A stretch of DNA of 63,320 nt, the filler included, from Octopus bimaculoides (Eukaryota), in NCBI RefSeq assembly GCF_001194135.2. It is 5 parts of 4 records of this genome, joined end to end, with 100 filler letters (N's around TTAATTAATTAA, not from the genome) between each part and the next. Parts side by side here need not be neighbours in the genome. Positions count along the whole stretch, not along the records: positions 1 to 26,418 come from NC_068986.1; positions 26,519 to 38,548 come from NC_068981.1; positions 38,649 to 53,222 come from NC_068987.1; positions 53,323 to 61,069 come from NC_069002.1; 1 more part is not named here. One strand, 5' to 3'. Positions 14,144 through 56,810 of this stretch are shown here, piece by piece. Position numbers and translations under genes: made by a program. Numbering within the stretch: the stretch's first letter is position 1; every line of letters begins with the position of its first letter. A model generated the notes under the pieces. That model searched no databases, was not told the DNA's origin, and was given only the letters and a program-made list of their open reading frames with translations.

Positions 14144-14579
14144 GTGCTATATTCAAGAGATGAGGACTTTTGTACATTATTTACATTTGACGGATATTTG
14201 TACTCATATTATTTGTTGTGAACACGTTTCGGCTGACATACCCTCCAGCATTCATCAGGTGTCTTGGGGAAATTTCGAACCTGGGTTCTCATTCCTAAGG
14301 TATTTTTCGGTATCATCATCATCATCATCATCAATATTATTATTCAGGTAACCGCTTGGAATCGAACTCAGATATTAATAATGATGATAATAATAATAAT
14401 AATAATAATAATAATAATAATAATAATAATATAGCAAAATACCTTAGGAATGAGAACCCTGGTTCAAAATTTCCCCAAGACACCTGATGAAAACTGGAGG
14501 GTATATAAGACGAAACTAACGTTGTGTGAACAACAAAAAAGAGGAGGAAAAATATCCGTCAAATGTAAATAATGTAAAT
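14144..14579. mobile_element. Foldback element family 1 (Penelope-like, hammerhead-bearing), decayed copy
   Basis: Inverted arms ~14144-14307 and ~14436-14579; each arm has a degenerate gacac-CTGATGA...GAAAC motif; a B-box (gagttcgattcc) lies on the minus strand at 14358-14369. Confidence 0.8.
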
Positions 14580-16488
14580 CATTTCTTGTAAGATAGACTA
14601 CAACTATCTTCCGATTAATAGGGGAGTAGAAGCTGATACAGAGACAATGCAAGGATTCGTTTTTATTATTGTTTTTCTTAAAGCAAGTCGTGTGTGAATT
14701 TTGTGTAATACACACATTCAACAGCGCAGTAGATTATCAGATGTTCACCTAAAGTGATAAAACAAGATGAACAATTTTAAACTTGATCCTTTAAAATTTT
14801 CTTTACTACCAGCTATCATTTGATACTCAATCATTGCACAAATCTATTGCAATATGATCAAGTTAAACTATCTGAACCTGTGTCACCAATAAATGATTTC
14901 AAAGAACATATCTCTTAAAAATCATTACTTTTGCTCTATCCGGCACTTTAAATTTCAGGAAAACCTCTGTAAAACCGTTCTTTTATAATGTGGTATATAC
15001 TCGTTTGGTGCCACTGGCATTTTGAGGTTATTCATGTAAGCGATATTCTCGAACGTACTCCTACAAGAAAATTTCAAGTGCAGAAATAGTATGTTAGGCA
15101 GTTAACACTATCATCGTCTGTGTATATGGATATTGGTTTCGCAAGATATTTTGTAATTCGTTAGTAGAGCAGAATGTATAAATATTCATTTGCTATGTGC
15201 AATTATTTTATATCTCCCTTTCAAATACTTTTCACCTAAAATATGTAAGATAAAAACACGAATCAAATAATAACAAAGTGATCATATTTTTTTTTTCATT
15301 TTCAAGCGTTGCAATATGTACGGGCAACATTCTTAAGAAGTGAAGAATCGAGGAAGAAGCATTGAGATTGACAAAAAATCATAGAAATGCTTAACCCCTT
15401 GACTGCCCATATAATTTTCGTCAGTTATTCATAAATGAATATTTTTTCAGATATTTAGTTAACTCTTGTTTCATAAGTTCTGAGTAATATAAAGGTTTCG
15501 TTTCCTAACTCCTAAAAGTATTACTACAGATATTAAAAAAACGATAAAATACTTTTCTACTGGCTCTTATACCGCCAAAATAAACTTAACAATGCAACAT
15601 CAGTGACTATATAACAATGCGACATCACTGACTATACGTATTTCCTGAATAATTTGTGCAGAATGCATTTTAGAAACTGTTGTACCTCGAGACACGGGCC
15701 AGCATACTATTCAAGAATAAACTTTGTCCGTTCCTTTATATTGGTTACAAAAAAATTCACTGGCCTCCTAACAAAGTTTGATTAGAAATAACAAATGAAC
15801 ATACTTGCATTTACAGATAAACATAGAAAATAGTATTCACATTATGTTTATATTCGTACGTATGTTTCCTCTGTTTTTATCGTTTTATGTTTAAGTGTAC
15901 TTTTGCACGATAAATTCTTTTCTCCTTATCGCATCAATTTTTCAGGTCGTTTGGATAAATTTTATTGAGAGGATTCGAGCAATTACAACTGTTGAACAGA
16001 ATCCATTCATTTCCAAACCGTGCTTTGCATTGGCAGTTTCTAAATTTACCATCTTGATATGCACAACTCGTCAAGTCATTATTTCTTTTTTTGTTCATAT
16101 TGTTTCCTTTACCCTGCAACTAGACTAACGTTGAGATTGGGAAATTAAGGTAACGTGTATTGTATGAAACCTTTTCACCAAAGGACATTGCAACTTCTCT
16201 AATGAGGTTACATATTTTGAAATAACTTTCGATAAGCTTTACAAGTACAGTATTTTTTCAATTATTCAGAATGTAGTAAACTATTGAAACAAAATTATAA
16301 ACTCTGCGGATGAACTATAGCACATTTTAACTTCTAATTACGAATTACGTTGTATGGTTTCCCATAAAATTCGATATCCTAGATATATTCTACACCTTCA
16401 TATGCATTTAAACTGCGTTCACTATCGGAAAGCAGGGTTTATAATGCCAAAATGTTTTCCAAATATGTAGTCATTCTGTCAAGTCTTT

Positions 16489-16639
16489 AAATTAACCCTA
16501 GCTTAACTCTATTTTGAGGCGTATACAGATTTAAGAACACTATCCTAATCATATATTCAATGAGTATATGATTAGGACGGCATTCTTAAATCTGCAGTTC
16601 ATAGGCCTCAAAATAGACTTTTTGCTAGGGTTTTAATTT
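16489..16639. repeat. ~150 bp imperfect palindrome (MITE/foldback-like)
   Basis: Arm pairs: aaattaaccctagc/gctagggttttaattt, tctattttgaggc/gcctcaaaataga, cagatttaagaa/ttcttaaatctg, tcctaatcatata/tatatgattagga. Confidence 0.8.
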
Positions 16640-17444
16640 GAACATGAGATAGACAGGCGGGAATCAGATACACGAGAGAGAGAGAGAGAGAGAGAGAGAG
16701 AGAGAGAGAGAGAGAGAGAGAGAAAGCGGTATTACAATTCTTAATCAATTTCGATCGTTTTAAAAATTAGTGGAAAGGAAACATGAACCAACATGTATAA
16801 AAATTACGAAATGATTGATAATAAAAATGAGTTGCAAATAACTCGTATTCTCTCTTTTACACATGCGTATGTCAAGCTAATACACCTGCTTGTTGTTCTG
16901 TAAATTTCAACTATATGTATGTATGAATGTATGTATTGTAGCTATCATATGAATGTTACAAACTTTCTTGAGAACGGGAATTCTTTTTCGAATATATTGA
17001 AGTGCGGAAATGAAGCTATCAATGATACATTCTAAATGTTGCATTGAAAGAATCCTTTTAGATAGAAAACGTCGAAAGTTATCCTTTTGATTTTTACATT
17101 TCAAATGCTTTTCCAACTCCAGATTTAGATGGCATGACGTATAAATTTACATGAGAGCTACGAGATATTCCAGAATGAAAATATATATCTATACATATGT
17201 GTGTGTGTGTGTGTGTGTGTGTGTGTGTGTGTGTGTGTGTGTGTGTGTGTGTGAGTGAGCGCACGCGCATAAAAATAGAAAATACGGGTGGTTTATATAA
17301 TTCTCTAAGTGCTATTTTAGGATTCATCCCACAGCCCTCACGGTTTGGTCGAATCTACCCTTATGACAGTTTAAAGTAATTTTTAGTGTGTTTGTCTTTT
17401 ATCGTCCCTTATCACTGCGATATATACGTGGACATCAATATATG

Positions 17445-54964: not shown

Positions 54965-55073
54965 AACAGTAATGGTTTGTTTTATTTTTGTTTTTGTTTT
55001 CTGTTTTCTTTTTGTTTTAAGGTAAATAAATATTAAGAAAAGCATTTAGAAAACCTTTGCTAATTTTGTCGTA

Positions 55074-55469
55074 TTAATCCATTAGCACTTTAATCTGGCC
55101 ATATCCCGGCTCAAATATTCTACCTGTTTTATATTCAAATTAGCCAGTTCCAACCTTTCACACCTACCCTGCAATGTCATTCTAAAATTAATCAATCACA
55201 TCATAAAACTTTTGAAGCTATGGGATAGATCATCGTCATCATTTAATGTCCATTTTCCATGCTGGCATGGGTTGAACAGTTTGACTGAAAACTGGTGAGC
55301 CAGGTTCCATTCTGATTTGGCAAGGTTTCTATGGATGGGTGCCCTTCCTAATGCCAACCACTCTGAGTGTGTAGTGGATGTTAATACATGATAATACATG
55401 ATTAATTGAAAACAATGTGAATAAATAAGTTTTACATTTGACAAAATAATCTGAATGTTGAAGGGTTAA
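55074..55469 (-). mobile_element. TTAA-flanked MITE interrupted by an RTE tail (~55228-55380)
   Basis: ttaatccattagc...aatctgaatgttgaagggttaa with internal catcgtcatcatttaatgtcc...cccttcctaatgccaacc. Confidence 0.75.
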
Positions 55470-56516
55470 ACATAACTTGTGTATAACATAATTATGATTT
55501 AACAGGGTTTTTTTTTTAAAGCACTCAAACATTAGTGTGGATTTTGTAAATCCTTAAGTTATATTTTTAAATATCTCCTGTGTGACTGGGTACTCCTTGT
55601 AGAACCCCAGTGTCCCGAGACATGTCATTTCAAAACTACAAATCTACATGGTCACACAGCTTGCTAAATATAGCAGTAAAGTCTCCTCAGATATCGCATC
55701 AAACAATTTTGTTTTTTTAAAAAAAAAAGGACACATTAAATAACGTAGTCTTAGATACACTATAACTGGGAAAACAAAAAAGCTACAGGTTGATTGCAAC
55801 TGGATCGCTGTTGATTGATCACAGGTTCGCTCAATCAGGACCAACCACGGGCTAAACAACAACAACACCAAATATAATCTACTTATAGGTTTGAGTTCAC
55901 TGTCTGGAGCTCAACAACAACAACAACAACAGAAACAAATGGGTTACAGCTATGAGTTCAATGACTGATGAAGTATTGTATCTATTAATATTAAAGTTCA
56001 TTATATTCTAGACAAGAAATCTGCTAAAAGAGGAAATCACACTCAGCCAATAAACCAATAATAAACACAGTAACTGACACTTCTCATCAGGAAACTACAC
56101 CTGGGTATCATAATTGACCTGGCTTAACGTCCTCACATGTGATTTTGTATGTCTGAGATATTAACCTTATGTTTTGATTTCTGGAGTCTATAGAACAGAA
56201 TATATGAGTTAAATTAAATTTGAGTTGGGAATGACTAATTTTAAACTGGTATTAGAATATTGGTCCTTTCACTTCTTAGTGGACTATGGCCACATTGCTG
56301 GCTACCAAATATCACTCATAATGTTTCGGTTAGCTGGAGGCCGTAGGTAGGAGACACTTGCCTAAGTTGCTGTGCATTGTGTCTAAATTTAGAAACATGT
56401 GATGGCAAATTGAGCCTTTAACCATACAACTGATGCTAACAGTCTGTTTCAATCATGGGAAATCAATGGCCCACAGGATTTTCTGTATGGTGCACCTTAG
56501 CAAAAAAAATTACCTC

Positions 56517-56810
56517 AATGTTTCAGCCGATATACTCTCCAGCCTTTATCAGGTGTCTTGGGGAAATTAACCACTATGCCATATGTCCATGGGCATATGG
56601 CATAGTGGTTAAGAGCACAAGCTACTAACCCCAAGATTCTGAGTTTGATTCCAAGCAGTGACCTGAACAATAATAATAATAAGATCGAAAAATACCTTAG
56701 GAATGAGAACGGTATATCAGCCGAAACATTGTATTAACAAACAAAATGAGGGCAAATATCCATCAAATGTAAATAATGTACATAATTCCTCATCTCTCAA
56801 ATATAGAACT
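56517..56810 (+). mobile_element. Foldback family 1 copy retaining its tRNA-like Pol III head
   Basis: A-box TGGCATAGTGG (56598-56608), B-box-like GTTTGATTC (56643-56651), then (aat)n, aaaataccttaggaatgagaac, the 3' half of the hammerhead and the family 3' end aaatatagaactg; inverted hammerhead arm at 56517-56568. Confidence 0.8.

What the first reader, a model, noticed from the sequence alone, without database searches (positions are those of the whole stretch)
14144..56810. Recurrent architecture: several unrelated hammerhead-bearing hairpin elements in 45 kb
Seen: five loci (14.1, 34.5, 36.8, 48.6, 56.5 kb; possibly also 30.7 kb) from at least three sequence-unrelated families are all 270-440 bp inverted repeats. 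All have a type-I hammerhead core with a palindromic helix III (ACGU, ACAUGU, AUUGGU), and none has a coding sequence or sits next to a recognisable PLE ORF. Inference: a high-copy class of non-coding, ribozyme-bearing foldback retroelements. Repeat annotators would probably label them MITEs or unknown, and they could be a major source of dsRNA hairpins in this genome.
Basis: inference. Interest (0 to 1): 0.75.

Follow-up and report, generated by a model that had tools for sequence, protein, structure and literature searches.

The report
Head-to-head Penelope retrotransposon insertion stubs
The hairpins are real, but they are head-to-head insertion stubs of three ribozyme-bearing repeat families, one of which is the end of a protein-coding Penelope-type jumping gene; the fold-back is likely made afresh at each insertion by Penelope enzymes, a known and ordinary arrangement rather than a new class of hairpin element.

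Summary
Partly real, wrongly read. The window is a pack: the five loci lie on four contigs, not in 45 kb. Four are inverted repeats, and only two (34.5, 48.6 kb) keep an intact hammerhead. Family A (14.1, 48.6, 56.5) is the pLTR of an autonomous Penelope/Poseidon-type element; a pLTR-ORF-pLTR copy exists elsewhere, and the arms encode its first ~50 codons. B (34.5) is a ~350-nt retrozyme-like unit with tandem dimers; C (36.8) is a ~514-nt ORF-less unit; 30.7 has no hammerhead. The fold-back is not part of the element: about half of A and B copies lack it and arm lengths vary. In A, 45 of 46 pairs join one long and one short 3' end, mostly inside a ~12-bp target duplication, the published Penelope 'inverted pLTR plus tail' scar. 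In a 689-kb sample these families give 2% of inverted-repeat bases, and RNA reads show no A-to-G excess. The least ordinary part is a tRNA-like head in A's pLTR where most short copies begin, a likely Pol III SINE shed by the element. This scan has noted both points before on other DNA.

The parts
14143..14372 (-). Family A pLTR arm, 5'-truncated, ends at the long 3' end (with tail); hammerhead damaged by a 3-nt loss at the cleavage site
14394..14582 (+). Family A pLTR arm, ends at the short 3' end; hammerhead damaged (4-nt insertion, stem II changes)
30719..30839 (.). Family D stub (about 330-nt unit with A/B-box-like part); head-to-head 35-bp inversion; no hammerhead core; left side abuts an assembly gap
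34472..34733 (-). Family B arm, long 3' end with ~55-nt tail; lacks the CUGA core
34735..34949 (+). Family B arm, short 3' end; whole unit flanked by an 11-bp TSD with one mismatch
34741..34783 (+). Intact type I hammerhead motif (6-bp stem I, ACAUGU helix III, predicted cut after 34777); predicted to be buried in the fold-back
36740..37039 (-). Family C arm with hammerhead remnant (about 37037-36985) whose stem I 5' strand is lost at the junction; inserted in (TA)n
37037..37119 (+). Family C inverted short arm (83 nt)
48579..48781 (-). Young family A pLTR arm, long 3' end; intact minimal hammerhead at 48711-48666; holds the first codons of the PLE ORF
48800..48977 (+). Young family A pLTR arm, short 3' end; intact minimal hammerhead at 48878-48923; TSD around the pair
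56510..56568 (-). Old family A fragment, hammerhead core mutated
56567..56612 (.). 46-bp snap-back hairpin centred just upstream of the tRNA-like head; the same hairpin recurs at L011, L014, L308
56591..56663 (+). tRNA-like head (A and B boxes) of the family A pLTR; weak Rfam tRNA match in a younger copy (14.5 bits, E=3)
56579..56810 (+). Old family A arm with an internal deletion that removed the CUGA core; long 3' end; no TSD found

Best explanation
These loci are 5'-truncated, head-to-head insertion stubs of three hammerhead-bearing repeat families, one of them the pLTR of a protein-coding Penelope/Poseidon-type element, and the fold-back is likely built at each insertion by Penelope reverse transcriptase/endonuclease rather than inherited as a hairpin element. 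Shown here: the full-length family A element; ORF-less tandem units for B and C; optional and variable inverted arms; one long plus one short 3' end per pair; ~12-bp TSDs around the pair. Inferred: the enzyme makes a ~12-nt staggered cut, both nicked strands prime reverse transcription at two fixed internal start sites (about 30 nt apart in A, 55 nt in B), and the two short cDNAs are joined at their truncated ends. Also inferred: B, C and D borrow Penelope-type enzymes in trans (partner not identified), and many A stubs come from Pol III transcripts that start at the tRNA-like head. The hammerheads belong to the element RNA, would need to pair as dimers, and are predicted to be silenced inside a fold-back transcript.
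For: [quoted passage not shown] Homologues carry RVT_1, one also GIY-YIG. An inverted arm is found in 14 of 27 A, 17 of 30 B and 7 of 30 C loci, with variable length. Long+short ends in A: 13 of 13, 17 of 18 (two edge rows dropped), 15 of 15 distinct loci (one unclassifiable row and two duplicate rows left out). In B 12 of 16 are clean; in D 5 of 5 pairs outside the window. TSDs in 13 of 13, 14 of 18 and 15 of 15 A pairs and 13 of 17 B pairs, against 1 of 300 random sites. The two arms usually stop at different 5' points and sometimes barely overlap. B has 4 hammerhead-to-hammerhead dimers at 340-352 nt and two compensatory stem I changes in a second subfamily. Stem I/II pairing probability is 0.53-0.89 alone and 0.00 in the fold-back. 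Published: inverted pLTR with one-sided tail and TSD (PMC3846280, PMC8557442); both-strand extension and two RT start sites in vitro (PMC11167929); minimal dimer-type hammerheads, including nearby pairs on opposite strands (PMC4209133).
Against: No autonomous partner was found for B, C or D: no PLE protein match within 1.5 kb of 30, 30 and 20 loci. C shows no exact hammerhead-to-hammerhead dimer, inserts in (TA)n so TSDs cannot be read, and many copies abut gaps. 4 of 16 B pairs are not cleanly long+short, and the window's D pair is short+short. Small snap-back hairpins at some junctions show that self-priming also occurs. The L163 RT fragment scores below Pfam's cut-off (E=0.0075), and clade placement rests on motifs, not a tree. 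The pack is about ten times denser in these families than the genome sample (6 in ~58 kb against 7 in 689 kb), which I cannot explain. No cleavage or transposition was tested.
Confidence: 0.85

Rival explanations
1. One reading: a class of non-coding fold-back retroelements that move as ribozyme-bearing hairpins and supply much of the genome's dsRNA.
For: The architecture recurs in unrelated families. Some head-to-head junctions appear in RNA reads (147-192 reads per run at one junction). Octopus has an exceptionally high hyper-editing signal (PMC5625713, passages).
Against: About half of A and B copies and most C copies have no detected inverted arm, and junctions differ between loci. A is the end of a coding element. 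Families A-D give 1 of 23 short inverted repeats and 276 of 16,067 inverted-repeat bases in 689 kb. No A>G/T>C excess over C>T/G>A in reads on A or B. The ribozyme is predicted to be buried in the hairpin.
Confidence: 0.05
2. Same elements, but the inverted arm arises by snap-back self-priming of one cDNA (or of an antisense template), not by two target-primed cDNAs.
For: Proposed in PMC3846280 from palindromes at inverted junctions. A recurrent snap-back hairpin at the tRNA-like head is seen at 56.5 kb, L011, L014 and L308.
Against: Snap-back predicts a symmetric centre and does not explain why the second arm stops at the other fixed start site in 45 of 46 A pairs. Most junctions are asymmetric, and some arms barely overlap.
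Confidence: 0.15
3. B and C are MITE-like DNA transposons with terminal inverted repeats, and the hammerhead motif is incidental.
For: Short, ORF-less, thousands of copies; C sits in TA tracts.
Against: The units are head-to-tail tandem monomers of ~350 and ~514 nt with variable 5' ends, not TIR-bounded. B has 10-16-bp TSDs. The motif is kept in 24 of 30 B and 21 of 30 C copies, with compensatory stem changes in B.
Confidence: 0.02

Closest known systems
Penelope/Poseidon-clade PLEs, e.g. PAc (Poseidon_Ac) of the green anole (PMC11167929) and Pen2a_Av of Adineta vaga (PMC3846280)
   Same: pLTR-ORF-pLTR with RT then C-terminal GIY-YIG; hammerhead next to the ORF start inside the pLTR; pLTR holds the first codons; inverted 5'-truncated pLTR, one-sided ~30-nt tail, TSD.
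   Different: Family A's pLTR begins with a tRNA-like A/B-box segment right after the stop codon, at which most short copies start; I did not find this in the passages or sections read.
[quoted passage not shown]
   Same: Short helix I, extra base after position 9, palindromic ACGU in place of helix III, mostly solo copies, some in nearby pairs on opposite strands.
   Different: B and C have longer palindromes (6 and 10 nt) and usually a mismatch at 10.1-11.1 instead of the conserved G-C pair.
Metazoan non-LTR retrozymes (PMC7229834; bioRxiv 10.64898/2026.07.22.740005)
   Same: ORF-less tandem units of a few hundred bases with one type I hammerhead each; mostly monomers, some dimers (B); proposed to be non-autonomous PLE derivatives.
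   Different: Circular RNA and cleavage were not shown here; C is ~514 nt with no dimer found; the PLE-type inversion/tail/TSD scar is shown here directly for B.
Schistosoma Sm-alpha SINE-like hammerhead repeats (as reviewed in PMC6765202)
   Same: [quoted passage not shown]
   Different: Here the putative Pol III head is part of the terminal repeat of a coding PLE, not a stand-alone tandem repeat.

Membership tests
EN+ PLE, Penelope/Poseidon (family A) | Single ORF with RT and C-terminal GIY-YIG endonuclease | tested here: met
   L268 frame open for 822 codons, one premature stop near the C-terminus, RT motifs and GIY-YIG-type core; homologues with RVT_1 and GIY-YIG
EN+ PLE, Penelope/Poseidon (family A) | [quoted passage not shown] | tested here: met
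   read from the translation against the criteria in PMC8557442
EN+ PLE, Penelope/Poseidon (family A) | RT phylogeny within the clade | not tested
EN+ PLE, Penelope/Poseidon (family A) | pLTRs flanking the ORF, with minimal type I hammerhead overlapping the ORF start region | tested here: met
EN+ PLE insertion scar (A, B) | Inverted 5'-truncated copy, tail at one end only, variable-length TSD | tested here: met
   A 45 of 46 long+short; B 12 of 16; TSD modal 12 bp
EN+ PLE insertion scar (C, D) | Inverted copy, one-sided tail, TSD | tested here: inconclusive
   inversions present and D 5 of 5 long+short, but (TA)n targets and gaps hide TSDs
Non-LTR retrozyme (family B) | ORF-less tandem unit with a type I hammerhead in at least two consecutive units | tested here: met
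   4 dimers at 340-352 nt; stem I is damaged in some of their first units; no PLE protein near 30 loci
Non-LTR retrozyme (family C) | [quoted passage not shown] | tested here: inconclusive
   partial tandems at 512-516 nt but 0 exact-pattern dimers in a gapped assembly
Non-LTR retrozyme (B, C) | Self-cleavage and circular RNA | not testable with these tools
   fragmented short-read RNA shows no end pile-up at the B site, which is a weak test
tRNA-derived SINE (short family A copies) | tRNA-related head with A and B boxes | tested here: inconclusive
   boxes align to RF00005 positions 8-63 at 14.5 bits, E=3, under the 29-bit cut-off
tRNA-derived SINE (short family A copies) | Fixed 5' end at the head and no internal Pol III terminator | tested here: met
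   19 true 5' ends within about 12 nt of tRNA +1 against 3 further upstream among 30 copies (5 cut by gaps, 3 internal junctions); no TTTT downstream in the pLTR
tRNA-derived SINE (short family A copies) | Transcription by RNA polymerase III | not testable with these tools
   needs Pol III ChIP, 5'-triphosphate RACE or inhibitor tests
MITE | Fixed terminal inverted repeats and short fixed TSD | tested here: not met
   arms optional and variable, TSD 10-16 bp

The most novel reading that the evidence does not exclude
An autonomous Poseidon-type retrotransposon has a tRNA-derived Pol III promoter built into its own pLTR and so sheds a hammerhead-bearing SINE that carries both reverse-transcription start sites. 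The near-obligate long+short pairing of arms (45 of 46) is a genomic record of an asymmetric enzyme dimer that primes each target strand from a different start site.
Probability: 0.5. Interest if true: 0.5.

Novelty: new member of a known kind. Interest (0 to 1): 0.27.

Why it matters
Mostly it does not: the layout is the published Penelope insertion scar in another animal. Two side results have some value. The strict long+short pairing with 12-bp TSDs gives countable in vivo support for twin target-primed reverse transcription, a step of the PLE cycle that PMC8557442 and PMC11167929 call unresolved, and the same scar ties a retrozyme-like family (B) to PLE enzymes. The tRNA-headed pLTR would be a coding retroelement that makes its own SINE. 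For annotators: these stubs should be labelled PLE-related, not MITE.

Tried and rejected
Rfam on the whole window (E up to 10; 150 of 167 rows shown) listed no hammerhead family, only microsatellite-driven miRNA matches; four family loci gave no match at gathering score. Minimal hammerheads needed my own descriptor. One search used the wrong end of L014 and fetched an unrelated repeat (L091-L120, not used); one search repeated it correctly. A PDB search with the RT fragment gave nothing significant. A TSD and relaxed-hammerhead test on the 23 sample inverted repeats found 0 and 0; the TSD part is insensitive, since it also missed the known B pair at L187. RNase P cutting as the source of A's fixed 5' end was considered and put low, because the acceptor stem does not pair (read from the sequence). 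One search listed no holder on record as RNA; the three raw RNA runs were added by species label, come from one study, about 6% of each was read, and their identity with G000's species is not established. The unique flanks of the 34.5 locus had no RNA depth, so nothing can be said about editing of that locus. One search held a stray 2-nt row, ignored. Literature searches listed no paper on hammerheads in octopus repeats or on a tRNA-headed PLE pLTR; most subscription papers, Repbase and Dfam are outside them.
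Full report
Setting. The window is a pack of five stretches. The loci lie on contigs C6 (14.1 kb), C1 (30.7, 34.5 and 36.8 kb), C7 (48.6 kb) and C22 (56.5 kb) of a 2.3-Gb animal genome, so 'in 45 kb' has no physical meaning. The host is probably an octopus; that rests on my recall of its repeats and on earlier AI notes, not on a call.

Observation. Four loci are inverted repeats; 56.5 kb has only a 46-bp hairpin. A type I hammerhead descriptor finds three motifs, at 34.5 kb and in both arms of 48.6 kb, and none in 30 shuffles; a relaxed version finds the same three. 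The 14.1 and 56.5 copies are damaged in the core or at the cut site. At 36.8 kb the inversion junction removed one strand of stem I. The 30.7-kb fold-back belongs to a fourth family, D, without a hammerhead core.

Family A (14.1, 48.6, 56.5 kb). Genome copies run upstream into an endonuclease and RT frame. L268 is a whole unit: inverted pLTR piece, pLTR, ORF, pLTR, within a 12-bp TSD. [quoted passage not shown] Relatives carry RVT_1 and, in one case, GIY-YIG; the L163 fragment itself is below Pfam's cut-off. The pLTR runs into the ORF, so the window's arms hold its first ~50 codons, as in the anole element PAc (PMC11167929, parts 1-2 of 4 read). The hammerhead has the features of PLE min-HHRs (PMC4209133, parts 1-2 of 4 read); that paper also reports pairs 100-700 bp apart on opposite strands.

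Families B, C, D. B is a 337-353-nt unit and C a 512-516-nt unit, seen as partial head-to-tail tandems, with no PLE protein match within 1.5 kb of 30 loci each. The motif passes in 24 of 30 B and 21 of 30 C copies. B has four exact-pattern dimers and a subfamily with two compensatory stem I changes; no C dimer was found. This fits non-LTR retrozymes (PMC7229834, passages; bioRxiv 10.64898/2026.07.22.740005, parts 1-3 of 5 read), firmly for B and loosely for C.

The fold-back is an insertion product. An inverted arm was found in 14 of 27 A, 17 of 30 B and 7 of 30 C loci, each set including the window's own locus, and its length varies. Copies have two preferred 3' ends. In head-to-head A pairs one arm is long and the other short in 13 of 13, 17 of 18 (two edge rows dropped) and 15 of 15 distinct loci (one unclassifiable and two duplicate rows left out). 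B gives 12 clean cases of 16, and D 5 of 5 outside the window. TSDs, mostly 12 bp, surround the pair in 42 of these 46 A pairs and 13 of 17 B pairs, against 1 of 300 random sites. This is the inverted pLTR with one-sided tail described in PMC3846280 (passages) and PMC8557442. PAc extends both target strands and starts at two sites whose spacing equals the tail (PMC11167929). I infer twin target-primed reverse transcription with one start site per strand. Snap-back priming, proposed in PMC3846280, is visible at a few junctions but does not explain the long+short rule.

Abundance and dsRNA. First-look candidates were 3067 (A), 2858 (B), 911 (C) and 1545 (D), all lower bounds. In 80 evenly chosen 10-kb stretches (689 kb without N) there were 5 A matches (two short and partly microsatellite), 2 B, 0 C and 0 D, very roughly 9,000-15,000 A and 6,000 B copies. 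The pack is about ten times denser, for reasons unknown. In that sample, 23 short inverted repeats were found; one is from these families and none holds a hammerhead; none of 4 intact hammerheads lies in one; A-D supply 276 of 16,067 inverted-repeat bases. Decayed fold-backs of other PLE families may hide among the other 22. Folding gives stem I/II probabilities of 0.53-0.89 for the motif alone and 0.00 in the fold-back. Three raw RNA runs of one study, species match unproven, carry B (432-552 reads) and A (8,333-11,822 reads) in both directions. Depth falls steeply from A's 3' pLTR to the ORF start, as copy number does. Some reads cross head-to-head junctions, there is no A>G/T>C excess, and the unique flanks of 34.5 kb are not covered. 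This looks like passive read-through. PMC5625713 (passages) notes heavy editing of lizard Penelope and of octopus generally, so editing of some stubs remains plausible. PMC13282606 (passages) lists 31 recently active Penelope-like families in Octopus vulgaris and does not mention ribozymes in its main text.

The tRNA-like head. Directly after A's stop codon lies an A/B-box segment (weak RF00005 match). Among 30 copies chosen only by a 65-nt piece inside it, 19 true 5' ends fall within about 12 nt of the tRNA +1 position (9 within 2 nt upstream of it), 3 lie further upstream, 5 are cut by gaps and 3 are internal junctions. All 3 unselected sample copies that reach this region also start there, and no TTTT follows within the pLTR. 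A Pol III start is the likely cause; it is untested. Hammerhead SINE-like repeats are known in Schistosoma (PMC6765202, passages). My searches listed no tRNA-headed PLE pLTR. I reached the overall reading and this result before seeing the matching notes; earlier notes of this scan report the same architecture and the same tRNA-headed pLTR on other DNA.

Verdict. Real repeats, known mechanism class, overstated observation. New members of known kinds; interest 0.27.

Noticed in passing
L191, L204, L212, L217, L230, L239 (sample stretches): A fifth short minimal-hammerhead family, mostly with a variant core (U in place of A6), is the commonest in the 689-kb sample (6 copies by the relaxed descriptor); the one checked (L204) is not in an inverted repeat.
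   Followed up: no
window 30719-30839; L121-L140: Family D: ~330-nt tandem unit with an A/B-box-like part, two fixed 3' ends, head-to-head pairs and (TA)n targets, but no hammerhead; a possible hammerhead-less PLE passenger.
   Followed up: partly
whole window: Families A-D are about ten times denser in this pack (6 in ~58 kb) than in the genome sample (7 in 689 kb); may reflect how the pack was put together.
   Followed up: partly
window 16486-16642, 29570-29710, 35813-35915: Three more small inverted repeats with no hammerhead or TSD found.
   Followed up: partly
window 19612-19988 and 49274-49648: Two 94%-identical copies of another repeat with a tRNA-like head, unrelated to A-D.
   Followed up: no
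window 21373-21796 and 38649-39066: A 424-bp repeat pair at 80% identity on different stretches; class not examined.
   Followed up: no
window about 34330-34360: A short stretch resembling the family A sequence just past its hammerhead, 100 bp left of the B insertion; below the match threshold.
   Followed up: no
L301/L302 (G000:C2:175.55 Mb): Family A copies in which the ORF end is joined to the tRNA-like head through a short direct repeat, dropping about 70 nt.
   Followed up: no
L193:1104-1442: A decayed fold-back of an unknown family with a hammerhead-like motif by eye that failed both descriptors.
   Followed up: no
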